DNA of 64,000 nucleotides, from contig NIVC01001884.1 in assembly GCA_002269645.1 (NCBI GenBank), forward strand, positions 1-64,000, in the 5' to 3' direction. Below are positions 5,781-62,230 of this stretch, one piece after another. A program made the position numbers and the translations under genes. The stretch is from Macrostomum lignano. Lineage: Eukaryota. The stretch's first letter is position 1. Each line of letters opens with the position of its first letter. Below the pieces are notes generated by a model. The model was given only the letters and a program-made list of their open reading frames with translations. It did no database searches and was not told the origin of the DNA.

Positions 5781-11794
<6,014 letters not shown>

Positions 11795-33298: not shown

Positions 33299-33417
33299 GA
33301 CAAAAGGGCTTTCTAAATAGATCAAGTTTTGACGCGGCCGCCAAGATTACTAAAATGTCAAGTCCAATTCAATATATTGTGTAGTGAACCAAGATGTGTT
33401 TTATGATTAAAGTCAGG

Positions 33418-37479: not shown

Positions 37480-37835
37480 CTTTTGGGTTTTGACCATTGC
37501 ATACAAAATAAGTCATACGCAGCTCACCGCAGATATCACTGCTAAGCTCTTGAAGGATAAATTATGAGTGATAAATTTTCTGCCCTTTCAATTTCTTAAT
37601 TCTTTAGGTGGAGCTTTTTCATAGCTATCAAAATAGTAGTATTTTTTACGGTCAGGATCAATCACCCAACAAACCCAATGAAAACCCGGTTTATCAACGC
37701 TATCAAAGTTAATAATACCGCATTCCTTTTTATGGTGCTGTCTGATTTAGGTAGTGTATCTCTCACTAAGACCCCTCGGAAGTTTGGAATCTCAAACTCA
37801 TTGGCTAAATTTTGAAGAAAAGTGTTCGTCATCAT
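37480..37835 (-). pseudogene. Polinton/Maverick adenain-like cysteine protease relic
   Basis: IPNFRGVLVRDTLP, frameshift, ECGIINFDSVDKPGFHWVC...YYFDSYEKAPP, then SSDICG (His, Asp and Cys motifs of the adenain family). Confidence 0.8.
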
Positions 37836-38049
37836 TTTTTTAGAATTTTTAATTAAAAACCTATTTCTTGCAATATACAATGACCAAATTGCAGACTTTT
37901 AATGTTGTCATCAAAGATGAATCTCTTATTATCCGCACCTGACAGGCCAATCTTCTGTTGTATAGTATAAATGTGGTTCTTAGACTGCAGTTTCGAGAAT
38001 TTATAGATCTCTTATTGTGACACTCAGCATCTCTGTATGCGGCTTCATT

Positions 38050-39090
38050 TTACTCATTCCTAGCTACATGTTCAGGAACACCCTACGATTTTAAAAATGT
38101 AATCTGATGTCTCGCTTTTTACAAAATAAGACTACTCTCAACCCGATAAATTCAGTGATGCCCCGAGTTTTCTCATCCTTTTTTCCCCAATTACTTTCTT
38201 GTTATTAGCGCAAAACATTTTATTACCATTCTGCGCTTTGATGATTCTGGGTATTCAGATAGGTCATACAAGTCCTGTATCAAAAGATCCTGATAAAAGT
38301 AGTGTTTCAAGGTTCAGGATCTAACTGTCTGAGTCTGTATACAGAAGTTTTATTTTGTCCTTGTATTACTGCTTCATGTCATAGAAGAACTTGTACATTA
38401 AACGTTTTCATTCTTCCAGAATAGTTACTCCAGTAAAGATTAGCTTGCTTAATTTTTCTTGGTCTTATAGAATAGGATTGCACCCAAGTGATCATTTTAC
38501 TTGTGAAGTTCCTTGAAAGTAGGTTTTGATATATTCTTCAAAATGGAATCAGACTCTGATGATGTAACAACCTTCAAGTTTGTCCTTTTCCGCTCATTTT
38601 CTAGACTTTTACCATAGACGAAATTATTGGCTAGCTTAAAAAGATCCTTGTCAAAGTTAGAAGTTGATTCTGTTCTAAACTGGGTGTTCTTATCAATGTA
38701 ATGTTTCATCCAGTTTGTAATTGATTTTATACCGTGTCTTGTTTAGATTCTGTGAGTTTCTTTGTATGTTCTTTTTCCCATTCCCTATTTCCCCCCTAAG
38801 GTACCATGTTCCATCGTGAGTTTCAATTATTTTTGGGCATTGAGTATTTACTGGGAAGGGTGGAAATTCAGAAAAGTAGTCATGCAGTTCAAAATTCAAA
38901 TGGAATATCTACATCTACCTCATAAATTGCAGGTGTTGAAAAGTCCTATTTTAGTCTTTCAAGTCACTAGAAATCTCTAGCAGGTAACTCCTGACTTATC
39001 GCCCTTTCATAGAGATTGTTTGCGTCTAGGTAGCTGATATAATTAGGGTTGCTTGCTGTTGTATGATTCCATGCAGGGGTTGTTTTTGCA
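38050..39090 (-). pseudogene. Protein-primed DNA polymerase B relic (Polinton-type), copy 1
   Basis: YLDANNLY, LHDYFSEFPPFP, KDLFKLANNFVYGKSLEN, KKPIFTGVTILE and KLLYTDSDS motifs, with stops and frameshifts. Confidence 0.85.
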
Positions 39091-39199
39091 CCGTTGCATA
39101 TTTTTTATTCAGCCACTGAAGGACCAACTTCAGAAGGAAAATGTTCTTATTTTTTCAGGCTTTCAACTTTATCCGATTTTAGACATAATTGCCACATAA

Positions 39200-39850
39200 A
39201 AATGAATGATGAAAATGAAAACATCTATCCTGTGGTTGAGCTGCATAAAGCAGATTTGAGGGAGCGGGACTATTTCAATCAGAGAAAGGGTGAAATCAAA
39301 GGCGTTATTGAATGCATTACTAAATATCTTACAATTTATAGCAAAAAGGTAAACAAGTACAAACGACAACTTGTCGTAGCAGGATAAATTAGCAGTATAC
39401 GACATGTAGCAGGATAAATTGGATCAACATTGTGACAGGAAATGTAAGTCTCTTGGCTGCTACAGGAATTGGCATAGCAACATCGGTACTGACATTGAAT
39501 CCCTTAGTCATTGGAGTAGTAATCGGGGCAATCAGTGGTTTTGAAGCTGTAAATCCATGTCATTGTTTGCAACTGTGAAAATGCATTGCCAAAAGCAGAA
39601 GGCAAAATACAGTGTTCTCAGAAATCTGGCAAATCAATAGAGATTTTATATTTACTCCCAAAAAGCAGTCAATGATTATAGAATAACCCTTGAAGAGGTT
39701 CAAGCAGCTACTGCAATTTATTCAGAATATAGAGAGAAAAGAGACCAATTGTTAGACGCCTGTGTTGTGCCTAAAGAAGTTAACCATTCTGAAGTCGTTG
39801 ATAAAATCCTCAAAGAGAGTAGTAGACTTGGTCATTCAGCGAAGTAAAAA
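39200..39850 (+). pseudogene. Polinton-type accessory ORF relic
   Basis: NIYPVVEL...KKVNKYK, a Gly-rich hydrophobic middle, and KAKYSVL...KAVNDYRITLEE resemble a recurrent uncharacterised Polinton ORF. Recognition is from memory; the position lies between two pPolB relics. Confidence 0.4.
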
Positions 39851-39969
39851 GTTAAAAAGGAATTGCTGGAGAAAGATCTGAGAGAAAATTGGGTCTAGCT
39901 GATAAGCCAAAAGAGTACTCGGCAAACACTCTATCTTTAATCAAATGCTTCAAGTGCGCCATCTATGCT

Positions 39970-41727
39970 TGAGTCTGTTTATTTTTTTTCTTAAAAATAG
40001 AAAGGTAAATACCAGCGGCCTCTTATGAAATTGATTTCGACTCCGTTGAAGAAATTCGCGGTTTAATCTCCCCAATTCTTTGCAAAAAATTGATGGCTAG
40101 AGATTCAATATAATACAGAATTTCGCTTGTTGCAGAATTTTATAAAGGAACTACCGACAAGTGGATTGAGTTCCATATCATTCAAAGTATCGAGCTTTGT
40201 TAAATCTGCTTCAAGTTGAAGCTAGTATTGAAAGTACAATCAGGGATGTTCTGGATGAATTTGATGAATGGAAGGATAGTTTTAATGAAAGAAGGATCGG
40301 GTTACTATTTTACGAAATTTGTAAAGATAGTGATGACGAAGTGACTAATTACAAAGCGGCAAAACAATGTTTTCTCTGCTCAAGGCCATTTGTAGATAGT
40401 AAAAAAATTCGAGAGCATAATCACTACAATGGTAAATATCGCGGCGCAGCATGTCAATCATGTAATACCAAGGAGGGCAAGGCGAATCAAACAGTACCGT
40501 TGTTTCTCCTGAATGAATCTGGAAAAGACTAACTATTTGATAGTTCCATTAAGACGAATAAAGAATATAGCATAGAAAATTGGATTTCATTTCTAAAACA
40601 TCGGAAGACCATGTTGCAATTAAGTGGGGGAATTATACAAGTAGCATTGTGTTTTTAGATGGATCTAGGTTTTTGGAACCATCATTTACACTCTCTGAAG
40701 AAGAAATAAAATATTTGCCCCCAGTGATACAACAGGTGCAATTAGAAAGATTTACTCATTTGTCAATGCTTTTGAGAAGTTTAGGTCAACATTCTTGAGT
40801 TATTTCAAGTTAGATCCTGCGCATTGCGTTTCCCTTTCTGGATTATCGTGGGCATGTGGGTTGAAATATACTAATGTGAAATTGGAATTACTGGTGATAA
40901 AGAAATGATATCTATGATAGAAAGTGTCATTCGTGGCGGTTTCTCTAGAATTCTTGGAGATCGATGTAAAAAATGAATAACAAGTTTTTTAGAAAACTAT
41001 GACAGCAATTCAGAATCGTCGTACATGCTATACCTAGACAAGAATAATTTATATGGTGAAGCAATGATGAAAAATCTTACTGTTGGAGATTTAAAGTTTG
41101 AAGATGATCTAGACTATCACAACAATATTCCTGATGACAGGGGTTGTTTTCTTGAAGTTGACCTTGAATATACAGAGGAGTGTAAGAAAGCTAGAAGTAA
41201 ATATCCACTTGCTCCTGAGAAACGAACTAGATTTGAGGATTTATCTGACATACAGAAGCAATACCTTGAAGTCAAAAAGAAAAAGTTTGTTCAATCCAAG
41301 TTAATGTTGACACTTTACAATAAGGAGAAATATGTCTTACATCAGACTACTTGAGTTTTATGAGAATTAGGGCATGCGAGTTACGAGAGTGCATGCAATT
41401 ATTTCATTCAAAGAGTCAAATTGGTTGAGTAAATACATCGAATTTAATACTAGGCGGAGAATGGAAGCAAAAAATAAATTTGAGAAAGACTTGTGGAAAC
41501 AACTAAACAATTCATTCAGCGGTAAAGCAATTGAAAATGTAAAGATCTAAAGAATAGATCAAACTTTCACCTTGTAACTGAAGCAAAGGTTGCAAGGCGT
41601 CATTTCTCAAAACCAAATTTCAAAGATTTCATTGTTTTTAGTGAGGATGCAGTTGGTATCCAAATGTACAAAAAGACAATTGCGTGTGACAAGCCAGTGT
41701 ATCTCCCGTTTGCTCGCTTGGTTAGTC
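39970..41727 (+). pseudogene. Protein-primed DNA polymerase B relic (Polinton-type), copy 2
   Basis: Zinc ribbon CFLC...HNHYNGKYRGAACQSCN, then IRGGFS, YLDKNNLYGEAM, FLEVDLEY, YPLAPEK, FEKDLWKQLNNS and DKPVY; cut at 41731 by a MITE. Confidence 0.85.
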
Positions 41728-41902
41728 TATGGGCCGTATGCAGAAAGCTCTGTCTAGGGTAGTCCGGTCTTAAAAAGCTAGTCTGGACTTGGATTTGGTA
41801 TGCAAAACGCAAAGTTAGACCGGTCTACTATAGACAGAACTAGGGTAGCTGGACCATAGACCATAGACTGAACTACCCAAGTCCGGACTAGCTAGTCTGG
41901 AC

Positions 41903-44900: not shown

Positions 44901-45462
44901 TGTAAAATGCAAGCTGCATACCTTCCACTTCATTTTCCACAGCTTCTCGAGTGAAATGGCTCGTAACTCCAGCATTGATTGCCACTTCAATGCTATGGAC
45001 TGATTCTTCGGAAACTGGTGCATGCGAATCGGGATGCCATCTTCGTTTACAGAGGTACTAGTGCTGGTACAAGTCGCCGCACAGCAATCTTCGCTTGTGT
45101 ATTTCAACTCTTCGATATTTGCCAGCACTCGGTCTTCATGCGTTCTTCCTCCGGCAGCCATTTAGACAATTGTTTTTTACTTGCTTAAATGAAAACGAAT
45201 TTGCGCTCTAGCAAAGGAGAAAAGTCAAAATATATATACTCCTTACTTTCGTTCGGATATCTAATAGGAAAGCCATGATGAACCCCTACTAGTAAGCTTG
45301 ATTTCGATGCTTGAAACTTTTGTCTATGGCTTAAACCATAGCACTGACGTGGGAGAACAAAAATCTATAGTCTTGCGCGTTCATTTGCCCAGAAGAGAGT
45401 AGGCTATTCAGACATCGAGCGAATTTGCATTAAGTGACCCATCTAGTGTTTTAGTATCTGTG
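41903..45462 (-). mobile_element. P-element superfamily DNA transposon
   Basis: Imperfect TIR of about 31 bp, CA(T/C)AGATA..AAAACACTAGATGGGTCACT; exact 8-bp TSD GTCTGGAC at 41895-41902 and 45463-45470. Confidence 0.92.
42443..45161 (-). pseudogene. THAP-domain P-element (THAP9-like) transposase, frameshifted, with one clear intron 43270-43174
   Basis: THAP CCAATC...HQFP...W...VCSLHF; SPAAYRLLR, LCFDG, VADQ, KMKVFLAAQIFSHSVA, TQDHVE|NLFSVIR, MEYVAGYV. Confidence 0.9.
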
Positions 45463-45870
45463 GTCTGGACTAAGCTTTCTGCATACGGCCCTATGTTTTA
45501 ATGCATTATATTTATCTTGCCCGGGTGATAAACGAGTTTATTTCCCGCTAGCCGGGGGGAGGCAAATAAACAAACTTTATATTTGGTCATAGATAAAATC
45601 GAAATTTACCGCAAATTACACAGATTGAACAAGGAAAAGTAACAAAACAATTACGTAAATTTGTCAATAATAAGTTAATATTAAGTTACTTTTGATTTGA
45701 CGAATGATAGTAAATCCTAATTCTAGGATAATTACTCGAAACTAATAACTACACTGTTGGTCTCACCGTTGACATCAATCCGCATCTTCTTTTTAGTAGG
45801 AATATCCGCATCTCGCTGCACTATAAGTTTCCTAGTTGGCCGCAAACTAAGAACCTTACATATGATTAAT

Positions 45871-46710
45871 AGTAACTCAAACGAGGTAGAATATGCTTGG
45901 ATGTTATTTACCGATCAACCATATAATAATATTTACTACTACATTTTCAACGTTTGTATTAATAAGTAAATAAGCAAATAAGCGAGCTACAAGCAGGGAG
46001 AATAAGTCTGAGACACTACGGTATAACTAAGCTACTCAAATACTCCTATTAATCTATTATAAATATATATATAAATTACGCCTATCTACTTGGTCTGAGA
46101 CCGATACGCTACTATTCATAAATCTATAGTCATGGCAGTGCTCAGTCTTACCCTCAGGTCACAGGTGTCTGCAGAAGCGGTCGTCGTGATTTGCAAACTA
46201 TTAAGCAATCCAAAAGTTAATACAAAGCGTGTAAAAGAGAGCGAAAAGAGAGTGAAAAAAGGGTAAAGTTTTTAGCATTTAACCCCTCGCTTATTTATAG
46301 TAAACTTCCCCGATGAAGTCCCTGTAAAACTGTCTGCGTTATCATTTCCCACGTCTTCCAGCCACCGCGCAATTCCGGCCGATTCTCACGGTTCCCCTTT
46401 CTCGTGCGATTTCTGAAATGTCTCTGTTAAAAATGTAATTGAACCCCGCCCCACATAAAGGCATACAACCCCTCTAAAGTGGAAGCAGACTTTTAGGGCG
46501 GCCTGCACTCGCCCTTTGCAATGCCGTCATCAAGCACTTGTGGCTTTTTGTAAGAGTGCAGCTGTCCACAACTGCTACACTCCACCACGCTCTGATAACA
46601 ATGCAATTCCCTAATTATTGCCTAATTTAGTCCCTAATACTACTTCCTAAAATAGTCCCTAAATAGTCCCTAAGGCCTACATGCATATGAAATTGAATCC
46701 TTATATTACT
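45871..46710 (-). mobile_element. Putative 3' LTR (about 840 bp) of the env-pol Gypsy-type element
   Basis: Follows the polypurine tract GAAAAAGGGGG (46721-46711). Termini AGTAA...TTACT are inverted complements; TATA-like CTATAAATAAG near 46300. Confidence 0.6.
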
Positions 46711-46929
46711 CCCCCTTTTTCAAAATGTGGTCCCCACATTTGCATTTAGTAAAATATGGAGATGAAGAAATCATTGAGACTAGTATGAAAGCAAATAGCT
46801 GTAGGTATGAGCGAATGATTTTAATCTCGTAAAGCTTTTATCATTCTGGATATAGCGATGTAGCTCGTTCAATCTCACCTCAAAACCATCTGCGATCTTC
46901 GATTTATGTTGTCCGACTCAAATTGAGCT

Positions 46930-47304
46930 TCAGTTGTCCTCTGAGCTGTCCTCTTCAGTAGTATTCGCATTACCCTCGTTTCTTAGGAGAGAAAGTAGTT
47001 TGGTGCAGCAGATAACTATCAGCTCCCAAATAATGCGTCCCTCGCGATATTCGTCATCGTACATATCGTCAGCGAGATTGCGGAGCTCCGTCTTGTATAA
47101 ATCAATCGGCCGTGTCGGTGGCGGCTCTCTGAATTCTACTTCAGAAACTCCCGGTTCGTATAGTCTACGTGCTTCCGTTCGGATATCTTCCAAGATGGGT
47201 ATTACTCTTTCCTTATAACCCGGCAGTAGGGGGGAGAACCATTGAAAGAAATTGATCCTATGGTAGATCCATGCTCGGCGCTCAAAGTCGTTCAGGATAT
47301 TCAT
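46930..47304 (-). CDS. Orphan 124-aa ORF between integrase and PPT
   Basis: Intact ATG-to-stop ORF starting 4 nt after the integrase stop; no recognised motif. Confidence 0.5.
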   Translation of the reverse strand: MNILNDFERRAWIYHRINFFQWFSPLLPGYKERVIPILEDIRTEARRLYEPGVSEVEFREPPPTRPIDLYKTELRNLADDMYDDEYREGRIIWELIVICCTKLLSLLRNEGNANTTEEDSSEDN

Positions 47305-47308
47305 GGTT

Positions 47309-50300
47309 CTAGTTCTTGCGTGGACGCAAAGTGAATCTCTTACAAGCTGATTCCTCTGTTACTTCTGTCTGCGTGGCGTTGGATTTGTGCAATCTGATTT
47401 TATGCGCATCATGTGTTGTGTTGCCATTGGTTTCTTCAGAGAATGGTGGAACTGCTATTGGTGGGCCTGACAATAGTCTCTTCAGCCTATTAGCGTTCAC
47501 TAGTCTGGCTTCGTCTTTAAACGTATCGTTTAAATTCTGAATTGCAACAGTTGAATCACCAATTATCTTCTGAACTTTAAATGGTCCTTCATAATTGGTA
47601 TCGAATTTTCCTTCCTTTACCGGCTTTTCTAAGTAGACAATATCTCCTTCCGATAATCTATGATTTCTTCGTCCTTTGTTTGCTTGCGCACTCTGTCGCA
47701 ACCGCTCTTGGAGCAAGAAGTGCCCTGCAATGTCCCAGCTTAGCTTCAGCGAGCTAGCTAATTTTTTGACGTAACTAGGAGATTCATCATATACTGACAC
47801 TTGTTCGTTCAGAACCTTCTCTGTTGGTGTTCTGTATTCATGTCCAAAAATAAGCTGATATGGCGAAGTGCGAAGGTTCTTGTTATAACTGATATTTAAT
47901 GCTAGGACTGCTGTTGGAACATATCTAGCCCACTCGGTCTGAGTGTCATGCACGTATGCAGTTAGGACATTCTTGAGAAGTTTGTTGTAGAGTTCCACCG
48001 GATTCGCGTGAGGTGTGTAATAGCTGGTGTACACTATCTCACATCCTATCATATCCGCCATCTCCTTCATCTGCACACTCGTGAAGTAACTGCCATTATC
48101 CGTCACTATCTTCCTTGGAATACCGAATGTGGCGAAGATATGACTGAACAATTTGTTTACAAGCACTTCCGTTGTTGGTTTTCGAATCGGAATTGCAAAA
48201 GCAAATTTTGAGAAGCAATCCTGCACTGTCAATATGTAATTAAATTCATGTCCTTCAACTTCTGACGTTACGAGCTTTCCAATGATATCCATTGACATCG
48301 TATCCCAAGGCTCCCCTTGGATCTGAGCCTTGAATGGAATTTTATACGTCCCCGACCGCTTTGTACTCAAACACATGTGTGACAACTTCTTACGTACTTC
48401 TGCATGTCCTGCCGCATTGAATTCCAATAGTAATGTCGCGCCATGCGCTCCAAACATTTCTGCCATCCGAGATGTCCTGATAATTTATCCTCATGATAAT
48501 GTCGTAACAGTGCGAGCTGATACACTTTTGGAACAACCAATTGGACTCCAGTAATGCTTTCCCGATACAGCGTGTTTCCTTCCATCCTGTACTGATGAAT
48601 ATTCTTCCTGATAAATCTATCCTCTTTCGATTTCCCATTCGGTAAGTCTCCACCCTCCATCACCTTAATCAATTTGCTCAGAGAGGAGTCTTTCCTCTGT
48701 TCTTGCTGTATCTTCTGTGTCGATGGGACAGGATGTATTAAGTTGATTTCGTCTACATCTGCTGGTGTAAGTCGGCTTAAATAATCAGCAATTGCATGCT
48801 TCGTCGAGCTTCCAGGACAGTAAGTTATCTTCATCTGGTATTCAGAAAGAAACAGAACTGATCTCGTTACTCGTGAGTTTGTTTCCATAATACCTCTATC
48901 TTTTATTATCGTCAGCAACGGCTTGTGATCGACTTGCACCGTAAATCGAGCTCCAAAGAGTAGCCTGTGAAAGAATTTTACTGCTGAAACAACTGCCAGT
49001 AGTTCCCTCTCGGTGACTGAATAGCGAGTTTCTGCCGATTGTAATGTCTTGGAATAATAGGATACAACTCTCTCTCTTCCTTCATCATCCTTTTGCGTCA
49101 AAACTGCTCCCAATGCGACATCTGATGCATCTGTTACTAGTTTATATTCTTTTCTTACGTCTGGAAAAGCTAACACGACGTCTTCTTGTAAACATCTCTT
49201 CAGACGATCAAAAGCCTCTTGACACTTTTCTGTCCAAGTGAATTTCTTTGGCTGTGATTTCTTTCGCAGAAGCTGATATAATGGAGCCGAAATCATGCTA
49301 AAATTTTTCACATGTCTGCGGTAAAATGTCGCAGCTCCCAAGAATCTTTGCAACTGTTTTTCGTTCTTGGGTGTGGGAAAGTCAATTATTTTTGTCCTTA
49401 GGCCCTGCTGCATCGCGATGCCAGATTTACTTAGCACAAAGCCTAAATACGGCACTTTGTCCTTGGCAATTGCAGACTTCTTAGCTGATAGTTTCAGTCC
49501 CAAATTGCGCAGTCGCGTGAACAAATCTTTTCAAGCTTTATGCATCTCGTTGAACGTGCTCCCTGTAAGCAGTAGATCATCAACGTATCCGATAGTATTT
49601 TTGAGACCGGCAACCACCATATTTTTCACCTTTGACATATATATCGGACTAATATTTAATCCTTGTGGTAGGCGCGTAAATTGATATTGCGAACCTGTAT
49701 ACGTCGTGAAGGCGGTTAGATGTCGACTATCCTCATCCAATCCAATATTAAAGAATGCATCCTTAATGTCAAAAACACAAAAATACTTCGTGTTCTGTAG
49801 TCGGCTCATCATGTCCTGGATTTTTGGAAGACTCTGAGCAGGTTGCCTGAGCATGCGATTTACTAGTCAAAAGTCAACTATAAATCTGAAGCGGCCATCT
49901 TTCCTTTTCACAAGAAGCGTTGGCGATGAAAAACAGGAGTCCGACGGTTCGATTACCTTTGCCTTGAGCAATTTAGCGATCTCATCGTCATATGCAGATT
50001 CTAGCTTCATTGGCAAAGGATAGGGTCTCCGATTGATTATTCCTTGGCCTGGTTTAACCTCCAATTTGACGCTTGGTCCTGTCCATTTCCCAATATCCGA
50101 ATCATGTCCGGAAAACACGTCAGAGTATTCCAATATAAGTCTATGCAGTTCTTATGTCTGTTGCTGATTCAAATCTTCGCCTTTTTCTATCAGATTCCAT
50201 TTTTCTTCTGGGGTTAGCCTCTCCTTTTCTTCTGTACAGATATAATCGTGCTGTGCCGCTTGCTCCACCAAGTCCCTTGTTCGACCAAGCTTCGTTCCTC

Positions 50301-50900
50301 TAACCAGCTGAATTTCTTCTTGACGATGATTCATTATAGGAAGAACCATTTGATCATGCTCAAATTTGATCATGGAAGAACCATTGTGGTTCACCAAAAC
50401 TGGCCACATTTCGTATCCATTTCCTTCAGCATTGAATTCATTCGGTTCGATCCATAAAGTTCCTCGATCCACTTGTGCCAAAATTTTGACTGGTACTTTC
50501 ATCACACTATGCGCAGGAATTCTAATATTCTCGAGGAGTGCCACTTCGTGTGATTCCTGTTGTTCGACTGACCCTACCATCGGGTATTCGTATTTATGGA
50601 TCACTATCTTCCTGTTTCCGTAATCTATTTGGACTGGAAGAATATTCTTTAGAAGGTTTACTCCCAGTATTATGTCATAGCTTGGATTCATTTCTTTGAT
50701 GATCTGAACTTCGACCATATGCTGTTTTCCTCCTATCTCTAAGTGAATTGTACCTCTTCCTATGAACTGAAGCTGGGAATTTCCCACTCCTACTGCAATT
50801 ATATCACTCCTGTTCCAATCTTTTACTGATCACAGTCAGCGTCGCTCCTGTATCGATCAAGGTATGTACCCTCTTCGTCCTTGTGGTGTCACAACCGGTA
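47309..50900 (-). pseudogene. Ty3/Gypsy pol (PR-RT-RNase H-IN), several frameshifts
   Basis: PR LIDTGA (50843-50860); RT RRPYPL, DIKDAF, LPQG, YVDD; RNase H TDASD, ERELLAVV, VDHKPL; IN H..GH...CHTC, SMDIIG, TDNG, NPVE, YEGPF. Confidence 0.95.
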
Positions 50901-53900
50901 AAGTTATTATGGATTTCATAACACTCCCCAAGGTGAATATCGAATGCTGTTTCCTTATTTGTTTCTCACTAGGGGGTATCGGAATGGTTGTCTCTGCTTG
51001 TGGTGCTTGAACTCCAGTCAGATTAACAGTAACATAATTTTCTGTTGGCAAGTTCGGAACCACATCTGTGTGCTGCTGTATAGCCGCTTCTTGTTTCTTT
51101 GATAGTGCAATTCTTCCTGTCCTTTGCACATAAAAGAATTTTATTATTCGCAGAATTATATAGATCCACACAATTGCGCATGTTGTCGTAATAAACAGAC
51201 TGTAGAAACTGATATGGAAACCAAAAGTCGCTCGAAAAAGCATTCCGAAAAGTCCGTTAGCTAGCTGCAGTGGCGAAAAATCTGCTAACCAACTCATATC
51301 AGTCCCATTTTCTGGTTCACCTACGACTCCAAATGTGTGTAAAAGTACGTTATTGTTCTCTACGAATATAGCATTTTGCAGTCAAGTTTGAACTGCGGGC
51401 ATTCAAATTAGACAAGAAGGGAAGAGCCAAATTTCAGAATCCGTCCCTAAGTCAAGCAGAACTTTATGTCTGTGGCACAAACTGAAACACACTGACGGGC
51501 ACTCAATTTAGACAACGGGCATTCAAATTAGACAAGCAGCGGAAAGTCTGTGTGCCAGAGAGAAAGACCATGGACAATCCGATTCGTCGCTATGCAAGAA
51601 TTTCCAGAGAGAAGCGTGACCTCATTATTGGGGCATGCCAACGTGGTGACTCTGTGGCTGAAATTGCCAACATGTTGGATGTCAAGAGATCATCAGTGTA
51701 CAACATCTGGAACAAGTTTGTTCAGGATGGCCAGCGATACGCGCTACCAAGGGGAGGAGCCAGGCACCGTCGAATGAATCCTCCAATGAAGGACCATCTG
51801 GCCGCCTTGTTGAATGCCAACCCTCTGATGACACTCGGGCAAATGCGGGAATCGCTTCTGTCTGAGTTTCCCACAATACCAACGATTGACATTTCAACAG
51901 TCTCTCGAGCAGAAATCTGAACTCCTGAAGTTCAGAGAGAATTGGCTGTTCCGCCTCCTGACATGACTGCCGTTCAATGGAGACTGATGGTGCTGCAGAG
52001 GTGCGGGGAAATCGCGATGGATGACGTGACTCCACTGAAGTGCGTTCACTGGTATCAGCACACGCTCCGCTTCATCCCACGCTGTCTGGCAAATGAAGAC
52101 ATCGTTTGAATTCTCTATCAGATGAGACTCTTGTGAGACTCTTGTTCATTGATGTGCTGAGCACCCTGTTTTGTTTGTTCACACATGCTTACTTTGTTAT
52201 AACTTGTTCTTATCTTCATAGTTCAGGGTTCACAGAATGGTTGTCTGACAACAGACGCAACACGATCTTGAATTGCCCAGCCAATGCGCCTGAGAACTTG
52301 TCTAATTTGAATGCCCCTTGTCTAAATTGAGTGCCCACCAGTGTGATTTTGTCTAGGCCATAGATAGCATTTGTGCCAGCAGTGAGATCTGGTCAAGCGT
52401 CTAATTTGAATGCCCGCAGTTCAAACTTGACTGCAAAATGCTATAAATCCAACAAGTCAGCAAGGTGGATTGGCGTTCGAAGGTCACTTATCTGCACATC
52501 TGCGATAGGATGATACACTCCTGTCGTTGTCTTAATAGTTAAAGGCTGAAAGTCACTTCCTAAAGATAAGACATGCACTTCATTTTCCATCCGTGCCACT
52601 GTTCGTTTTTGTCGACTTCGAATGGGTCACCTTCGATTGAGACGTAATATGGAATCACATTTTTACATGCTTCTTTGTGAACATCTGCTGTGATTATTTT
52701 TGTTTTCGTGTTCAAAAATGCCTTTATCGTTTCATTTTTCTCATTAAACTGGACTGGTGGTTGCGCATAACAAGCGTCACGTCGTGCTTCATGAGGCAAG
52801 AATGTTATGTTGAAAATCTTCTTGCACGGGTACACCACAACGAATTCTCGGGTCACTACTGCCTCAATTTCTTCTTTTCCAATTATTCTCCTCATCACCT
52901 TTGTCGGGCTATTAATTAATGACAATCGTAGATTCTTCACTGTGGCCTTGAAATTCTGACAAGCAAGTTTTATCGTATTACGTTCCAATTTTCGTAATCT
53001 CTGCAATTCCTTAATCTCCACAGCTTCAAATTCAGCGGCGATCATTGAAGCCGATTCTAGTTCGAACTCAAGACTTCTTTTCTTCGTTGCCTTTAGATCG
53101 GTCGACTCTAGTGAAGACATCTTATTCCTTTTCAGTTTGCTTTTCATCAACTTCCTGAATAGCTTTGTCTTGCTGGAACTCTGTTTCTTGTGTGCTTGAT
53201 GCGCAATTATTAGGCGTAGTCTCTCTGTATCTGACTCGTCTGATGCCAATTGGATGTAAACGCCTTGCTCAGCTCTAAATAAAGTTATGTTCACTTCACT
53301 GCAATTTAGTGTACGTTCGACAGGTCGTTTAGCGAACTGGAATGCCATCGTTTGATCATCCGACATGAGAAACGTTGAATGTAGAAATCCTTCCTTAGTT
53401 GAAAGGGCAATAATTCACAACTCCGATTTTTCTCCACTTGCCAGACCATCGTGAATGCTCTTTCACCTTCGTAATACAAATAATGAACATCCGATTTTTG
53501 GGCTGATTCTATCTGCATCGATTCCCAAGGAGGGTGCTTATTCATGACTGCCATAGGCAAGGCCATCACTTTGTCAATAGGCATCCGCATCTCACACATT
53601 CCTGACCTGTAAGCGCATTCTTCGATCCGGAATTTCATGCTACTCATTGCTCCATTCCGTAAATAGAATTTTATTCCTGTCATCACGGAATCTACTGTGC
53701 CGACATTCGTCCCTACCGCTCCTGGAAAGCTTATCCATTTTATCTTTGGTGCAGAATCTGTCCTGTATAACGTAGATCCATCATTACTCCATACCTCGTG
53801 TAATTCTCCGATGCTTGATTTCCTTTCTTCATGCCATCGCTTGCAGTTCTCACTTAAAACCTCATGGGGTGTAACCTTGAAGACAATGCTGTGGTGGATA

Positions 53901-54430
53901 TTCATCACTGTTCCCCACCACTTTGCTTCCACACGAATCTCTTCTCGATGACATACAACCATTTTCCCATTGAATGTTTGCGTATTCGGCTTAAATATCG
54001 TAAAGTTAATGTGCTCTGCACTATTCTGGTTCCTGTTTAATTCTGGACAGGTGATTTCTTCTGGAAGTCGGAATACCTGCTGTCCGACCGATCGGTCACA
54101 GACTAGTCCGTAGGTCATTTGATTCGACGCAGAGCCTTGCAACTCGGTCTCGGCCCGAACTCCTCCTAGGCTTAAAAGCATGAAGACGAAAAGGAAAATT
54201 ATCTTCCATGACCATCGCTCCGCTGTCCGAGGTTTCATTTCCATGACGTTAATTTCTGGGAACTCAAGAAGCTGAAGTTCCTCATTACCACCGGTCTGCT
54301 CATACTCATGCGCAGAATCTGTTCCTCCGACTGCACCTTGCGCGTCAACCACATTCACTCCTGCTCCTCTTCCTCTTCCGACAGTTCCTCGGCCTCTATT
54401 GATTGATTCCTCGGCCTCGGCCTCTATAAC
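50900..54430 (-). pseudogene. Env-like class III (gB-like) fusion glycoprotein upstream of pol, interrupted by a Tc1 element
   Basis: Hydrophobic signal KIIFLFVFMLLSLGGVRA|E (about 54205-54152), a Cys-rich ectodomain with N-glycosylation sequons, the segment LACQ...NSPTKVMRRIIG...VVYPC...CYAQPPVQF, and a TM segment at about 51215-51150. One frameshift near 53370. Confidence 0.75.
51369..52443 (+). mobile_element. Tc1/mariner-IS630 element, internally deleted (HTH retained, DDE core lost)
   Basis: 45-bp TIR TAGCATTTTGCAGTCAAGTTTGAACTGCGGGCATTCAAATTAGAC, TA TSD (51367-68 / 52444-45); ORF 51552-51920 has a paired-like HTH and a PRGG linker. Confidence 0.92.
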
Positions 54431-54449
54431 CCTTCGTTTGCTTGAAAAT

Positions 54450-57400
54450 TTAAAGGCGATATTTTATCTCAGCAAACTTATATTTAGTCTTAAACTCCTC
54501 ACTTTTCAGATATAAATTGGCTTTATAAATGTGTTTCTCATGATAAGTGATGTCGGTATCTTTTGTATATTTGCATGGGTAATTAATATTTATAATTCGT
54601 CTTCTTTCTGCATCTCCAATATTTTGTCTAAAATCAGGCCTGTTATTACATTCGACTATTAGGGTTGCGTGTGAAACAACATTACACTGGCTTGAATAAC
54701 CCCACCACCAGTTAGTAATTTTATTGATGCATTGTTCAAGACACCACTTACTTTTTGACTGATAACCAACCTCTTTTATTAATTTGTGCTAGGGCTGGTT
54801 GTGGCTTGTCTATTTTTATTGGTAAATTTAAACACCAGGACTCAGTGGTGCTGCATAATCAGGTCCTAGAGTTCTAAGAAGTAGTTTGTCATCAACCCCC
54901 TTGCCATTTCCCCCAGCGCCATCGAAAATTATAAAATTTTCAACATTCTTACCCATTAGAGCTGTGGCTATAGCTCGTTACGGATGCCCAACTCTTTCTG
55001 TTTTCTAGATTTGGATGAATCTGATTGTGTAGATTAACAATGAAGTTGTAGTCCTCGTCACTCACTTCAAGTACATCCGAGTAATTATATCCAACATACT
55101 TAGTAACATAGTCGTTATATCTATGCTTGCGAAATTCGCCAGTTAGATCATATACTCCATCGCCAAACCCTAGCAAATTCCATTTCATGTCAAATTCAAG
55201 TTCATTGTTAGCAAACCTCTCAAATTGAACAAAGTAGTTACCTGTTTGAGTTTGTTGGCTCCTTGTATTGAATTTATATTCTTCATTGTACTCTGTAGTT
55301 TCTTTTCAAGTGCTTTTAACTTCTCTTTATCATCACCCTTAATTGCAATTTCGAGTCTAGTCTTTCGGTGGTTTAACTCACTGCTAGCAAAGTCTGATAT
55401 TTTAAGAAATATGCCATTTATACTACTTAGTTCTCTCCACCCGTCGTCATCAAAATAGTAAATACCATCGCTATTATAAATGAAGTACTTATGGTTGTCT
55501 CGGGGTTGTCTCGAAGTGGCCTGGTAGGTCTTTGAATCCCACCGCTGCCACCAGTGTTGTACTTGTGCTTCTCCTGCTGTCCAGCACAGTGGTTTGGGCT
55601 CTCCGTCTTCTCACTCGGAAGCATTCTTAACTCTCAGTAGCGTAGGTAGTGCTGCCACCAGTTCATTTAGGTCTCGGCCTTCGATGAGGTGAGCTTCCCG
55701 TTGGAACGAAATAACGAAGTCAACGAACTCAGCACCGTGTGCAGATTTGCAGCTCAACGTAACAGGCGTCTCGTCAGCAGTACCTGCCGGGCTTCGTGGG
55801 TGAAGGGAGGGCTGTGTTAGCCTCTCGTAGGCTCGGGTTTGGCTTTAGTAGGGTCTCAGTCAGACCAATAGCAGAGAACTCAATGTACGCAGACACTTAG
55901 AGAACGGGTGACTCAGGCTCAGACAATAGCGCACACGGGATCTTAACAGATTCTCTGAAGACTAGAAACTCGAGAAACTAGAAGCTCCTTGACGGAAACA
56001 AGGGGAAACGAGTCCTATTTATAGCCAGGATTCTCCCGCGCACAAGACCTCGTTACTTGTTCTATTTTTAGAACTGACGTCACTTGAGGTCTCCGGACAG
56101 AGTGCGCCAGGCTGTGACTCAGTGGCTATTTTTAGCAACATGAGTCACTCCTCTCAGAGAAGGGAAGGGCCTTAGGCACGTGATTCTCCCGGTAAACAGG
56201 ACCAGCGAGTGCAGTAAACATGTTTACTGTACTTTAAGACTCCAAGAACGCAAGATCTGTCATATGACAGAGGAAAACGAAAGGGGAACAAAACAGAGAC
56301 AGCCCCCAGCAGAGAGGCTGAGGGCTGAGAACAGAGGCGCAGTAAACGAGCAGAACAGGAAAAGGGGGCAACAAACAGACAGACAAGGGAGGCGGGAAGC
56401 TGACCAGCGGCAGACAGCAACCCAGGGCGAGGACGAGGGCGAGGGAACTGCTGACAAAAGGGGGATGCCTAACATTTAACTAGCGGCTCACTACATAAAT
56501 GATATTGTTCTTCTTATATGCCTAAACAAATTGGTAATGTTAACGTCAGTGAAATTATCATCAAGATACTCAATCCTACCATAGTTATCATATTTGCTTT
56601 TCCATTCCTTATATTTACCATAGTTTTCTTTACTGCCCGTTTATTTAGTGTACCTATTGTAAGTAATCCTCCTGTGCATCAGCAGAGCTGGCACTGGTGC
56701 TATTCCACACCTTTTTACATGACTCGGAATCAAACACATCATAATTTGCTTTTGACCAATCAGTGAATACTTTGTACATTTCATTGCTACTGTCTATGTT
56801 GCGGAGTATGAGTGCTACCTTGTACCTCGATTGATAATCTTAGGTTTTTGTGCTGCATTATACTTTGAAATATTTGAAATAACAACTTTGAAATTCCGTC
56901 ACAGTTGGGGGTGGAACGGTGCTTTTTAGTGCCTCTTTTTCGGATTCTTGGTTTTCTTTTTTATCCTGTGGCTTAATTAATCTATTTATCTCATCAAGAA
57001 TTTCATCTGGCATGTCTATTAACCCTTTGGGCTTTATATTTTTGTATTCCTTAATTTCACCATCGACATAAAAGAAACCTGGTGGAGCAAATAACAAAGC
57101 TGATTTATCAAAACCCACGCTTTTTTGAAGTGTTACTTTCAGTCGATCTACCTTCTTTAAGTAAAGGTGATGCCCCTTGTTTGTTTCTACAATCCAATCA
57201 CAATGATTCATACATAATTTATTCAACTCAGGGCATAGGTCAGCTTTATCAATATCGATGACAGAAATATTTGAGTTTTTCGTATCTACGAGCTATCCAA
57301 ATCATGTCTTCATCTGGTCGAAGTGGTAGGGAGTTTGAATTCCTTTGTGCTTTAGTTGGCATTCCTTGCGGTATTTCTTCGTCTTACTATTCCATTTTAT

Positions 57401-57510
57401 ACTGCAATTTCCGAATCTAAAATTAAGTTTTCCATAGAGGTTAGTTAGTGTATTATACAACTTTGTTTGTTCTCAATTTCTCAACCTTGGTGGTGGTGCA
57501 TAATGGTTTT
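54450..57510 (-). pseudogene. Viral-type PrimPol + D5/SF3 helicase gene relic, split by an LTR-like insert
   Basis: PrimPol SVIDID...VETNKGHHLY (about 57300-57150); D5_N-like NLLGFGDGVYDL...YVTKYVGYNY (55188-55080); Walker A GAGGNGKG (about 54910); IKLLTGGG, ECNNRPDF, DAERRRI. Confidence 0.8.
55496..56474 (-). mobile_element. Solo-LTR-like insert (about 970 bp)
   Basis: GC-richer block with minus-strand termini TGTTAG...GAGACA and TATA-like CTATAAATAG; the primase-helicase frame resumes on both sides. No TSD found. Confidence 0.55.
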
Positions 57511-57589
57511 GACGCGAATCCTGTACGATCGCAGGAGAGACACTTGAATCGTTTTGATTTTTTCCTTCCATTTTATTTAAAATAAATTT

Positions 57590-59390
57590 AACAATATAAT
57601 CCATCAGTTTCAATGTACTTCTCAAGGGTTATGGGGAGTTTGAAAATGTTCAATTTCAGCATGATGAAAAATTTCAGCATGACGTGGAATTCATCCTTCC
57701 TTATGTGCTGTCTCGACATCTATGCCCATTTATCAACATGTGCAAGATATACTCTGAATGAATACAAATATGCGGGACATTAACATTCGGTGTGTTTCAA
57801 TATTTCTGCTTTATATTCATCGTAAGCTTTATCAATTTCCTCAATTAGTCGAAAATTTCGAGTGGGTGTTTTTATTTGAGATAAATTTATAATAGAATCA
57901 TAGTACTTTAGTGGCAGTGCATTGCGACCATTCGAATTATTGCCTTCCATTTTTTCTAAAAAAATTTGCCGTTACAATCTGGTTTTTGAAGTGAGTCCGT
58001 TACCAGCAACAGCCCCATGAGAAAAAATTCCAGAGCTTTCTTTATCAGACTGCCTACAGACTTTAAAAGAGGGGTCTAACCCATCACCCCCGAAAGGTCG
58101 CATACGAAAACTCGTTCTCAATTGTATTCCTCTCCTCCCTGTTTCAACTCGTGGAGCTCGCGTGGCTTACTTAAGCCGCAAATTTTTGTTTCTATTTTTA
58201 GTAAGTGAATGAGTAACTGTCCAAAGATAACAATGCGCTCGTGGAGCACAATAGTGGCGCGCTTTTTATTCAATGAAATGGTATTAATCTTGGTGCTTTT
58301 TCCTGTGAGTAGTGAGAAAAAAGTGTTGCTTATTTTGTGCAATATTTCTTAGTTTTTATGAAGTCTTCGTAAAAAACTTTGGCTTAAGATGAAAAAAGAA
58401 GAAAATCTTTTCCCTACTACTCACAATAGAATAGCATTAATTCAATCATCAAACAATCAATTAAAATGCGCAGTCTTTGTATAGCGGCGCATTCCTGAGA
58501 AGAATCAGTCCACACTATTTATGAGATCGTCTTCATCGTCTTCATCGTGACCTCCAGTTGCTGTGCTCTAAAGAAAATGTATTTCAGGTAAGTAGTAATG
58601 GCATGAAACTTTATTGTAAAAAGCTGAATCGCTTCTTTCCAGAAGCCGCACAGTTAAAACCGAGAATACATTATCTTCTCCCGGTTGTTTCGTCCGTCCG
58701 TCCAAACGGAAACACTCTTCTCCTTGGTTTTTCCATCGCTACAAATATACTCTACTGTTTCGTGTGAAACTTTCAAACACTCGCTAAACTCTTCATCTTC
58801 GTTACTGAATCTCTCTATCACTTTCTTGTACTTCACAATTGTCGACAGACAATAGTCAGAAAAAATTAGAGCTGGGAATTTTAGACAAATGTCATAAAAA
58901 GTTGTGTGATCACGAACCTTCCGTTTTGTTAGTCCAAAGTCCTCTGCGATCTTTTCCTCGGTGAGAGTTCGTCTTTAAAATGATATCGTTCTGGCCTGTT
59001 CCTGCGTCTTTAAAGATCCTACTACAGCAAAAGCTTCGGAAATGAAACGAAAGTGCTTCTTGACTTCGTCTATATCCTTTGACTCTAGATCGTTTGCCAA
59101 TTCGTCAAAAAGTTTGTCAAACTGTCGACTGTCAATTCGTAAGCCCCTAACATTGAGTTTTACAAGCTAAGATTTCGCAAAAATATGCGCTCTTCACGAT
59201 CGTTACTGGTAGCTCTTTTAGGCTTCTTAGCTTTTGGCTTAACCCCTTCCTCTAAATTGGAGAGCTGGGTTTTGAACTTGCGTACCTCTTGCGCCTCCCA
59301 CTTAGTAAGAGCTTCAGTTAGTTCAATGTCTGTTCTTGTTCGTAATAGTTGCTTTAATTTCTCTATAACTATGTCTATATCACTCATAGT
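57590..59390 (-). other. Cluster of short, intronless, co-oriented decayed ORFs upstream of the primase-helicase
   Basis: Protein-like frames at about 57590-57945, 58118-58342, 58400-58860 and 59160-59387, all minus strand, tightly packed and AT-rich. Confidence 0.45.
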
Positions 59391-60099
59391 AAAATACTTT
59401 TAACAGAGAGATTCAAGGATTCTTAAAACCCAGATGAATCGCTGTGCTGGTATTTATATGAAAAGCTTTTTTTAGTTTAGTTGTTCTGTGTTAGTCATCC
59501 ATTGCGTAGTGGGTCATTGTGTCTTTTGGTAAAAGCGAATAGAGGCCAGTGAATGAAACCTCATGCAACATACTGGGGGTGAAAACGAATAATTGTAACG
59601 CACACAGGTTTAGAAAAGAGTGACTCACTGCGGAAGCTTTAGATTGTGCATCTATACGCAGTTACTAGTTTTTTATTGCTTCATTGAATGGTTTAGAAAA
59701 ACATAATGGTTTACTGAAGGCTCATTTTTAAAATGAAAAAAGTAATTAATCTCAATTGGATGACACTTTCATATTGTTTATTCTTGATTATATTTACCCC
59801 CAAACCACACATTTCTCATAGTGTTACTCACGAAATCTCGAAAATAGCACTTTTCCAAATATTTGAAAATGGCAAAAAATCGCTGTTTTAAGACCATTTT
59901 TACCTGTTTTTAGTCATTTTTCACCTATTTTTTGTGATTTTTAAATGAGTGAGGGCATGATGGCGAGGGCACCCCCTTTTTTAAAAGTGTAAAAAATTCT
60001 GAAAATCTGTTCTACGAAATATACCCACATGCCGATGCCCTCACCCTCAGTGCCCCCACGCCATGTCTATACCCGACCCTTGTAACTCTGAGCTCCTGG

Positions 60100-60199
60100 T
60101 AGTAGTAGTAGTATAATAAAAGGGGATGAGTCATCTCGTGAGTGGCGCGAACTGCGCCCGAACGATCAATTTAGCCCAGACCCTTTTATTATAATACTA
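60100..60199. mobile_element. 100-bp mini inverted-repeat element with 4-bp TSD
   Basis: TIR of about 20 bp (TAGTA(G/T)TATAATAAAAGGG), termini TAGT...ACTA, with CTGG duplicated at 60096-60099 and 60200-60203. Confidence 0.65.
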
Positions 60200-60600
60200 C
60201 TGGACAAGCGTGGTACCTGCAGTCTAGGCTTACTGGTTTTGTCTACTTTAGAACTTAGTGGATTTTCGGGGTATATTGGTACGGTAGATTTCGCTGCCAC
60301 CAGGTTCCTGCTTTCCCTAATTCTGGTATTCAGATTTAAAGAATGGAGTCAGGACACCAACGATATTTCAACAATTAATAAGGTTTTAATAAAAAAAGAA
60401 AAACGTTAACGTACAAAAGATTGGTTACATTAATTCCCCTTAATTCCTATTTTCCGTTTAATTGTGCTTGGGCAAGACTCCCATTAGTTTAGAGGCGTGA
60501 CTCCTCTTGTGCAATTTTACTTTATAATTTACCTTTTATTTCCTTTTCTTACCGAATTCCTTGTTATTCGCAAGACGCGCACGCAGGATGCTTTCCCAAA

Positions 60601-61481
60601 CAGTAACAGTAACAGTAATAAGTAATTCGGCGCCTCAGCCATTGATCAGGCTCTTACGCCACTAGATATAAATGGATTCCAGGTTGGGAGTGTACTTATG
60701 TACACTGAGATCCTAATTGGAGCTAAGAGGACTGTACAAAGGGCAAATGTCAGATCAAAAACCTCCCCGGGGGACAGTGACAGCGGAATGACATACCAGT
60801 CAGGAAGCCCGTGCCCAAAAAACCAGGTTGGATAGACCCTTGCCTAATTGGGGTTGGCCCGAAGGCCGAGAGCCGTGGCTACCATGCTGGGGCCGACCGC
60901 CCACCACCCCGGGTACTCAAGCCAAATGTACATAAACCTCCCCAAGGACAGAGGGGGAAGAGTGAACCATTCAGGGAAGCCCGTGCCTTCTCCTGGGTTA
61001 GATAAGCCAAAAACCGGTCAAATGACCTCCCCCACGGCCGTGGCAGCCCGAAGGAGCCTCCCCCACAACTAAACCCCGGGTACTCTTGCCAGACAGTCTC
61101 TTATCTTTGAAGCGGCAGGAGGGCTAATCGCCGGGACTATTTCACCCTTTGCTTCGCCAACCCGCCATTTCTATAGTGACCTTGCCAACGGTCTCGTCCT
61201 GCTCAGACTCAGTCCTGGTTCTGGCACACTCCAGCTTTAATAGGGTCGCTGGCTGTTCGCTCAGAGGGCACTTAAGGGAGACCGTCAAAGCACCAACTGG
61301 AACAGGTATAGGCCTGCCTTCCTATACAGCTACCCACAGCCCTTCCCGATCCACTATTACCCTCCTACCCAGCCTACTCACTCATTACAAGCTTTCAGCC
61401 AGGTAGAGACAAGTTTCACAGGAGTACTGCGGTTAGGCGCCTCTAAGCGAGACAAAACCACGGCCACCAAAAAACAAAACC
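60601..61481 (-). mobile_element. About 850-bp non-autonomous retroposon, copy 2, with a 50-bp flanking duplication
   Basis: Homologous to 29206-30051; (TTACTG)n tail; 60551-60600 is repeated exactly at 61482-61531. Confidence 0.85.
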
Positions 61482-62230
61482 ACCGAATTCCTTGTTATTC
61501 GCAAGACGCGCACGCAGGATGCTTTCCCAAAAGCTCAACTGCTCTGTAGTTCTAAAGGATCCCGAAAACTAGCGATTTACCCCTGCTCTAATTATTTCCC
61601 CGGGTTAAAACTACTGATAGTAGGCAAAAAGTATATTTCCCCGCAACTAATTCCCGTTCCTAAAATAATGCTCTACTACACCTCCCCCTCGCTACAAAAA
61701 TGTACAAAACCCCCTTTTGTACATTGATAATTATATTTATTTAACAAATTTTAGTTATGTAATAAGTATGATTGCGCTTATCAGCGATAAGTGAATATAA
61801 AACAATGTAGTGAGCAAGGATTATTAGGACTACACGTATGACAAGTGGAAAAGTTAATGGTATGCATAGTCGTAAAACTTTAATGATATTAAGTGTTTGA
61901 ACAAGTTGAAATATGCGTATGATTAATGGCATGCATAATTGTATTATTAAGACCTTGAATAAATGTTGAGTATGATAAGAAGAATTAATGACATGCACAG
62001 TTACACTATTAAACCTTGATGACGCTATATGTTGAGCAAGTTGAACAAAAAAAAGAACACAAATAAATGGCAAGTGGATACAACATCTACAAAAAAATGC
62101 GATGCAAAAAGTGGTAAATAATTGGCAAGTTTTACTCCAAAAGATAGTAAAATAATAAAAAAATATTTGATGGCATCAAGCATGTGTAATTATGTTGCTT
62201 TGGAAGAGTTATTAAGTTCCCTAGTTTTAC

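What the first reader, a model, noticed from the sequence alone, without database searches (positions are those of the whole stretch)
54450..59400. Endogenous DNA-virus-like block: PrimPol-D5 helicase plus tightly packed orphan ORFs
A fused primase-polymerase (DxD and TxxGxHxY motifs), D5_N and SF3 helicase (GxGGNGK) is not a normal animal gene. Such fusions are typical of NCLDVs, Polinton-like viruses, virophages and some phages/plasmids. It follows at least four short, intronless, co-oriented, unrecognised ORFs in AT-rich DNA, as expected for an integrated viral genome segment.
Basis: partly seen in the sequence, partly recalled or inferred. Interest (0 to 1): 0.7.

Follow-up and report, generated by a model that had tools for sequence, protein, structure and literature searches.

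The report
Flatworm Maverick virus with extra primase-helicase
This is a decayed arm of a Maverick, a virus-like jumping element, whose family has gained a primase-helicase gene while its DNA polymerase has lost its proofreading part, a pairing described before in the protist virophage mavirus.

Summary
The primase-helicase is real but is not a giant-virus fragment. It is the broken left arm of a Maverick/Polinton family with at least 40 matches in this animal genome. Other copies are 18-19 kb long, with ~600-bp inverted repeats starting AGTAGT, 6-bp target duplications (4 of 6 checked), pPolB, rve integrase, jelly-roll capsid and A32 ATPase. The window's own pPolB lies at 39.9-41.7 kb, cut off by transposon insertions. 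The 'orphan ORFs' are mostly pieces of two broken accessory genes.

The unusual part: the family carries both an 840-aa PrimPol-PriCT2-D5-SF3 gene and a pPolB whose exonuclease motifs I and III are lost. These motifs are kept in 85-87 of 87 long homologs and in the sister family of the same genome, where no helicase was found. Polymerase motifs and the vOTU residues are intact, and helicase and polymerase both show purifying selection.

Best reading (inferred, not assayed): the helicase unwinds DNA for a proofreading-dead, protein-primed polymerase, as proposed for mavirus. Primase-helicases replacing pPolB in group-2 Mavericks are already reported. New variant of a known kind.

The parts
59703..60200 (-). 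Left terminal inverted repeat of the Maverick; begins AGTAGT and holds a ~100-bp internal hairpin
   Evidence: 74% to positions 1-549 of the family repeat; shared boundary in other copies; hairpin arms 60104-60124/60181-60201
58657..59399 (-).
   Evidence: Natural 289-aa and 243-aa ORFs align across the pieces; 72 matches in the genome; homologs beside other Maverick genes; no Pfam family at E<0.001; atlas recognition below threshold
57591..57965 (-). 119-codon ORF found directly upstream of the primase-helicase in the family; split by a stop here; function unknown
   Evidence: 81% to the family ORF; no usable Pfam or atlas hit
56496..57628 (-). Primase-helicase, N-terminal part: Prim-Pol (DxD, H, D motifs) and PriCT_2; broken
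   Evidence: Pfam; 86% DNA identity to an unbroken natural copy with 7 frame-shifting indels
55481..56495 (-). Solo-LTR-type insertion (TG...CA, TTTA duplication) splitting the primase-helicase
   Evidence: absent from main-family copies; part of it shared with the duplicate locus on C538
54429..55480 (-). Primase-helicase, D5_N and SF3 helicase part; broken and cut off at about codon 730 of 840
   Evidence: Pfam D5_N; 88% DNA identity, 5 frame-shifting indels
45822..54404 (-). Unrelated Gypsy-type LTR element with a fusion-glycoprotein ORF, itself split by a Tc1/mariner-like insert (51367-52445); it stands where the helicase end and pPolB end are missing
   Evidence: Pfam
39973..41731 (+). 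pPolB of the same Maverick copy, converging on the helicase; internal deletion, cut at about codon 851; shows the degenerate ExoII and deleted ExoIII state
   Evidence: 89-91% DNA identity to family copies; tblastn; motifs; Pfam Endonuclease_7
39125..39961 (+). Hydrophobic accessory ORF (about 250 codons) and the last codons of the fibre-like gene; the copy ends here, joined to a remnant of a different Maverick family

Best explanation
SHOWN: the block is the decayed left arm of a Maverick/Polinton (membership about 0.97). The family is young and carries two replication enzymes head to head: a PrimPol-PriCT2-D5_N-SF3 primase-helicase, and a protein-primed family B polymerase that keeps its N-terminal region, vOTU Cys/His and motifs A, B and C but has lost exonuclease motifs I and III and about 100 residues of that domain. 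INFERRED: integrase inserts the linear genome with a 6-bp duplication. pPolB still starts synthesis at the AGT-repeat ends from its terminal protein. Because the exonuclease domain forms part of the tunnel that lets such polymerases displace a strand, the shortened enzyme needs the hexameric SF3 helicase to open the duplex. The primase domain is auxiliary (priming the displaced strand or restarting forks). The helicase gene came from the pool of mobile AEP-SF3 replicases of small eukaryotic DNA viruses. The window copy itself is dead.
For: Ends, target duplications and gene set. Exonuclease loss: ExoI D and E kept in 86 of 87 database homologs of 1000 aa or more, ExoIII Y in 87 and D in 85, and in 4 of 4 sister-family copies, but not in this family; ExoI-ExoIII span 209 residues against a median of 308. 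The same state in all 10 family copies where the script read each motif region, and the ExoIII deletion also in the window. Other inter-motif spans normal, vOTU Cys/His kept. The nearest pPolB clade is the exonuclease-intact sister family (support 99, FastTree), with no primase-helicase hit in the 5 sister loci fetched; an outside query found 57 genomic matches (56 of 64 candidates scored), none on those contigs. Pairwise dN/dS 0.10-0.41 for the SF3 part (14 of 14) and 0.13-0.36 for the polymerase part (13 of 14). Model pLDDT 82, matching ASFV C962R and poxvirus E5/D5 in the PDB and Hokovirus and Bodo saltans virus primase-helicases in BFVD. PMC11161782 (passages) reports exonuclease loss paired with helicase gain in mavirus and PLVs; PMC4974454 (passages) places the exonuclease domain in the phi29 strand-displacement tunnel.
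Against: No activity was measured, and one family against one sister is a single contrast. The primase domain is less constrained (dN/dS 0.69-0.99 in 5 of 15 comparisons) and poorly modelled (pLDDT mostly 50-85), so its role is open. dN/dS pairs share one reference, have small dS and include decay after insertion. The 33 shorter pPolB homologs were dropped before the count; a loose pattern found ExoIII in 25 and ExoI in 7 of them and they were not inspected singly. Their helicase content and that of the 87 long homologs is unknown. The TPR2-sized span is normal, so strand displacement may survive. One copy (C543) joins the helicase to a piece of another family's pPolB. Minor capsid and protease had no Pfam match.
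Confidence: 0.6

Rival explanations
1. Replicase handover in progress: the PrimPol-helicase is already the main replicase, and exonuclease loss is the first step in the decay of pPolB, which is kept only for protein-capped ends or gap filling. The end point would be the helicase-only group-2 Mavericks.
For: pPolB is often replaced by PrimPol-SF3 fusions in group-2 Mavericks (bioRxiv 10.64898/2026.06.19.733378, passages and section 9); PMC11296320 models this turnover (passages). Primase motifs are intact. The pPolB stem branch is longer than the sister's (0.61 against 0.39).
Against: The polymerase part has dN/dS near 0.2 with all catalytic residues, and the N-terminal region and vOTU are kept; the primase is the least constrained part of the fusion.
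Confidence: 0.2
2. The primase-helicase is selfish or neutral cargo in the variable slot next to the inverted repeat, and the exonuclease was lost for unrelated reasons.
For: The slot beside the repeat does change cargo between copies. AEP-SF3 genes are proposed to be mobile by themselves (bioRxiv 10.64898/2026.10.13.758929, section 13). The replication block lies in two orientations.
Against: In this genome the gene was found essentially only in this family, stays linked to pPolB in both orientations, and is under purifying selection.
Confidence: 0.17
3. A fragment of a giant virus (NCLDV), or bacterial or phage contamination or an assembly chimera.
For: Best solved-structure matches are ASFV and poxvirus primase-helicases. 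No listed contig bridges the helicase/Gypsy junction at 54404-54429 (1022 pieces not shown), so that single junction is unconfirmed.
Against: At least 40 dispersed matches, with target duplications at 4 of 6 checked. The same insertion occurs at a duplicate locus on C538 with host flanks. 20 of 24 listed runs from 8 studies, all one organism label, hold the family gene; two runs cover 29 and 30 of 30 bins of 53000-61500 at 97% likeness. Phage matches are weak (best E 3e-11 among the rows listed, 28% cover). The helicase falls outside both the phage and the core NCLDV branches.
Confidence: 0.02

Closest known systems
Maverick/Polinton elements (class Polintoviricetes; adintoviruses), probably group 2
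   Same: Size, AG-starting inverted repeats, 6-bp duplication, pPolB with endonuclease VII insert, rve integrase, double jelly-roll capsid, A32 ATPase, weak phospholipase A2-like domain. Group 2 is reported to swap pPolB for PrimPol-SF3.
   Different: Both replicases are present and kept under selection, and the pPolB lacks exonuclease motifs I and III. PMC3671162 calls pPolB plus primase-helicase uncommon.
Mavirus-like virophages
   Same: rve integrase, pPolB with only a remnant exonuclease, and a separate SF3 helicase gene (PMC11161782).
   Different: Here the pPolB nests among exonuclease-intact polinton polymerases, the capsid matches the PF21738 family, the helicase is fused to a Prim-Pol domain (PMC3671162 reports no other domain on the mavirus helicase), and the host is an animal. 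So a parallel origin.
AEP-SF3 replicases of PLVs and multi-replicase polisuviruses; extra D5-like genes of Bodo saltans virus
   Same: Domain order and fold; single elements with a second replicase have been reported (bioRxiv 10.64898/2026.10.13.758929).
   Different: Those replicases usually go with tyrosine recombinases; here the partner is rve integrase, in a high-copy animal family.
NCLDV core D5 primase-helicase (ASFV C962R, poxvirus D5/E5)
   Same: Overall architecture and fold.
   Different: 13-20% identity; separate branch in the helicase tree; no other NCLDV gene in the element.

Membership tests
Maverick/Polinton | Terminal inverted repeats of several hundred bp starting 5'-AG | tested here: met
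   ~600-bp repeats starting AGTAGT at both ends of C2232, C2696, C67, C1391, C184; the window keeps the left one only
Maverick/Polinton | 6-bp target-site duplication | tested here: met
   Perfect in 4 of 6 two-ended copies checked (C2232, C2696, C1391, C184); not in C67; right end eroded in C620. Not testable for the window copy, which has no right end
Maverick/Polinton | Protein-primed family B polymerase | tested here: met
   Motifs A, B, C intact; 41-57% to the top homologs of 987 found, some named from Mytilus and Pocillopora
Maverick/Polinton | Proofreading exonuclease in pPolB (usual state, not required by the definition) | tested here: not met
   ExoI acidic pair not kept, ExoIII deleted
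Maverick/Polinton | rve integrase | tested here: met
   PF00665, E 5.9e-10 in another copy; absent from the window copy
Maverick/Polinton | [quoted passage not shown] | tested here: met
   PF21738 E 2.1e-13; PF04665 E 6.9e-6; absent from the window copy
Maverick/Polinton | Minor capsid protein and adenovirus-type cysteine protease | tested here: inconclusive
   No Pfam match; ORFs of fitting size and position with homologs in the sister family; the labels are my recalled reading of the sequence
Group 2 Maverick | Capsid/ATPase clustering with group 2; phospholipase domain | tested here: inconclusive
   PLA2-like hit E 0.003, below cut-off; no labelled references for clustering were at hand
Polinton-like viruses (Aquintoviricetes) | Polymerase-helicase in place of pPolB, tyrosine recombinase in place of rve | tested here: not met
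   pPolB and rve both present; no recombinase among 15 ORFs scanned
Mavirus-like virophages | Exonuclease-deficient pPolB plus SF3 helicase plus rve | tested here: met
   (works like it)
Mavirus-like virophages | Virophage capsid and dependence on a giant virus | tested here: inconclusive
   Capsid matched PF21738 and no virophage family in Pfam; no mavirus sequence was compared; helper dependence cannot be tested here
Nucleocytoviricota | Core D5 clade and NCLDV hallmark genes | tested here: not met
   Helicase outside the core-D5 branches; 18-19 kb element bounded by repeats

The most novel reading that the evidence does not exclude
An independent origin, in an animal Maverick, of the mavirus-type replication system: gain of a mobile PrimPol-SF3 helicase coupled to loss of the pPolB exonuclease. 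It is caught as a still-spreading intermediate between pPolB-only and helicase-only Mavericks, with a proofreading, helicase-free sister family in the same genome as a natural control, and with the replication block found in both orientations.
Probability: 0.5. Interest if true: 0.65.

Novelty: new variant of a known kind. Interest (0 to 1): 0.48.

Why it matters
How Polinton-like viruses swap replication modules, and why exonuclease loss goes with helicase gain, has been argued from ancient, highly diverged lineages. This family offers a shallower contrast inside one animal genome: many near-identical copies with both enzymes, and a sister family with a normal polymerase. The compensation idea and its effect on mutation rate become testable with purified natural proteins and by comparing copies. 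The window copy alone is an ordinary dead transposon arm.

Tried and rejected
NCLDV or phage origin: rejected. Scans for close helicase relatives: none confirmed in prokaryote genomes (0 of 118 pattern matches) or in IMG/VR with an alignment (0 of 242); 2 distant IMG/VR loci with the single protein; 11 metagenome loci, the two closest on ~3-kb contigs without useful context. Capsid alignment against IMG/VR: 0 of 205 confirmed. These are pattern-limited searches, not proof of absence. First structure model from 9 sequences was unusable (pLDDT 50). pPolB had no meaningful PDB sequence match. Atlas searches gave no usable function for the two accessory proteins. Expression: no RNA holder listed. 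Two of the four runs laid (X1, X6) covered only 12 and 13 of 30 bins and little of this copy's Maverick part; a hole proves nothing. A single origin of the inverted arrangement is neither shown nor excluded by the primase tree (starred branches force 1 change, bootstrap trees 3-4), while the pPolB tree forces at least 2. Three look-ups in earlier scan findings returned nothing. Paper searches showed no description of this family; 1 of 15 listed holds both the species name and 'polinton' once each and was not read.
Full report
Observation. The window gene is broken by stops, 12 frame-shifting indels, a solo-LTR-type insertion at 55481-56495 and loss of its last ~100 codons. The fusion is real: 4 of 69 genomic matches are unbroken 837-841-aa frames. 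The orphan ORFs reduce to two broken genes and one probably non-coding frame.

What it is. The window lies in a 764-Mb genome, and the region has 42 and 40 matches there (lower bounds, and some may be allelic). A capsid protein identical to the family's is labelled in the database as from the flatworm Macrostomum lignano. Mapping other copies gives an 18-19 kb element with ~600-bp inverted repeats starting AGTAGT and a perfect 6-bp duplication in 4 of 6 two-ended copies checked. Pfam identifies endonuclease VII within pPolB, rve integrase, double jelly-roll capsid, A32 ATPase, an F5/8-domain fibre-like protein, an Eco47II-like nuclease and a weak PLA2-like domain. This is a Maverick/Polinton. 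It is young: 17 full-length capsid genes are 99-100% identical with no stop (92 of 555 candidates scored).

The window copy. It runs from the left repeat (60200) through two accessory genes and the primase-helicase. After a Gypsy element and a THAP-bearing insertion it continues with pPolB (39973-41731) and a hydrophobic ORF, and ends near 39100 against a remnant of another Maverick family. Capsid and integrase genes are gone. It belongs to a branch 9-15% diverged from the main family. Contig C538 holds the same insertion with matching host flank. An LTR element has inserted into the very tip of the repeat. Contamination is excluded by dispersion, target duplications and presence in 20 of 24 listed runs from 8 studies. 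Only the helicase/Gypsy junction lacks a bridging contig among those shown.

The primase-helicase. A model from 71 sequences (pLDDT 82, pTM 0.67) matches ASFV C962R and poxvirus E5 in the PDB, and Hokovirus and Bodo saltans virus primase-helicases in BFVD. The closest sequences are unnamed metagenomic proteins of 39-45% identity on short contigs. In a 66-row tree of the helicase domain the protein sits in a 7-row clade (SH-aLRT 99). That clade lies inside a 51-row group (100) that includes two small A32-bearing viral contigs and excludes core NCLDV D5 proteins and a phage helicase. The tree is loaded with top hits, is midpoint-rooted and left out L095, so no donor is claimed.

The polymerase. 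Aligned with 87 of 120 listed homologs (those of 1000 aa or more), 4 sister-family copies and one copy of a third family, this family's pPolB alone lacks the ExoI acidic pair and ExoIII. The span between them is 209 residues against a median of 308. Motifs A, B, C, the vOTU Cys/His and all other spans are normal. The state is shared by all 10 copies in which each motif region was read. The nearest clade is the exonuclease-intact sister family, in whose 5 fetched loci no primase-helicase was found. Pairwise dN/dS is low for helicase, polymerase and capsid, noisy for the exonuclease remnant (0-0.78) and higher for the primase domain in 5 of 15 pairs.

Mechanism. Shown: gene content, motif states, selection. 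Inferred: protein-primed initiation at the ends by pPolB, unwinding by the SF3 helicase in place of the polymerase's own strand displacement, and an auxiliary primase. The basis is the phi29 structure, where the exonuclease domain helps form the unwinding tunnel (PMC4974454, passages), and the reported pairing of exonuclease loss with helicase gain in mavirus and PLVs (PMC11161782, passages). Rivals are a replicase handover under way (0.2) and unrelated cargo (0.17).

Orientation. Of 37 copies mapped, 14 have the primase-helicase next to the left repeat (window and C538 count as two but are one insertion), 17 have the replication block inverted, and 6 are other or unclear. A 10-bp motif stands twice at each junction of the inverted form in the 2 copies examined, and once in each of 4 non-inverted copies, the window included. 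The two forms are mixed on the pPolB tree, which points to recombination between copies or repeated flipping.

Comparison with print. bioRxiv 10.64898/2026.06.19.733378 (passages and section 9) says group-2 Mavericks often substitute pPolB with PrimPol-SF3. bioRxiv 10.64898/2026.10.13.758929 (passages, sections 11 and 13) reports single elements with a second replicase, and repeats bracketing replication modules. PMC3671162 (passages) calls pPolB plus primase-helicase uncommon. PMC11296320 (passages) models replicon turnover. PMC8502044 (passages and one supplement searched), PMC13215967, PMC12801592 and bioRxiv 10.1101/2025.04.19.649669 (passages or term counts) gave no description of this family; the last notes polinton insertions in flatworms. 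Six searches found no report of an exonuclease-dead pPolB with a primase-helicase in an animal Maverick. Figures, bioRxiv supplements and Repbase could not be seen and may already list it. The labels 'minor capsid', 'protease', 'fibre' and the exonuclease motif names are recalled, not returned by a call.

Verdict. A real element of a known class; the window copy is a dead arm. The family is a new variant for its two-replicase, proofreading-dead design. Interest 0.48; 0.65 if the coupling is confirmed.

Noticed in passing
window 45822-54404 (-); L135:485-4510 (C103): Gypsy-type LTR element whose fusion-glycoprotein gene (Monjiviricetes_fusion, E 1e-11) lies upstream of pol. In C103 it is one 1342-aa frame ending in the aspartic protease, between repeats and without RT or integrase; Pfam found no gag domain. 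Only 4 genomic matches. Env before pol is an unusual order.
   Followed up: partly
L039:3682-3712, L040:2816-2842, L049/L050; window 39180: The replication block occurs in two orientations; TAG(A/G)CATAAT stands twice at each junction of the inverted form.
   Followed up: partly
L034:7705-8148: Eco47II-like restriction endonuclease ORF (E 2.2e-6) next to the integrase, with a 63% homolog in the sister family.
   Followed up: no
window 60104-60201: The first ~100 bp of the terminal repeat is itself an imperfect inverted repeat with AGT/ACT triplets at both ends, in the window and in other copies; a possible origin or integrase site.
   Followed up: no
window 60201 onward, to about C1884:69497: A ~9.3-kb LTR element has inserted within the terminal AGT repeats of the Maverick.
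   Followed up: partly
window 37461-39085 (-); L037:4479-6043: Remnant of a second Maverick family abuts this copy; on C543 the primase-helicase is followed directly by a piece of that family's pPolB, a chimera.
   Followed up: partly
window 32076-41731 and L132/L044 (C538): The locus is duplicated on another contig at 91-98% identity, including host genes and the Maverick insertion.
   Followed up: partly
window 41731-45491: THAP-domain transposon with nested inverted repeats inserted at the cut end of pPolB; absent from the C538 duplicate.
   Followed up: no
L045:7279-9299, L055 (C272, C4009): Copies in which the window's accessory gene lies between the terminal repeat and the fibre-like gene, with no primase-helicase seen in between.
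   Followed up: no
L031:7536-8354: Hydrophobic accessory ORF with a weak SLATT_1 hit (E 0.031), conserved in the sister family.
   Followed up: no
L095: Metagenomic contig with a D5_N helicase, rve-like integrase and A32 ATPase but no pPolB in the 12 kb held: a possible helicase-only polinton-like element.
   Followed up: partly
window 28326-28640 and 34872-35249 (+): Two uninterrupted ribosomal-protein-like frames (L37a-like and L36a-like; names recalled).
   Followed up: no
window 7690-11800: About 4 kb of (CTGT)n-type microsatellite.
   Followed up: no
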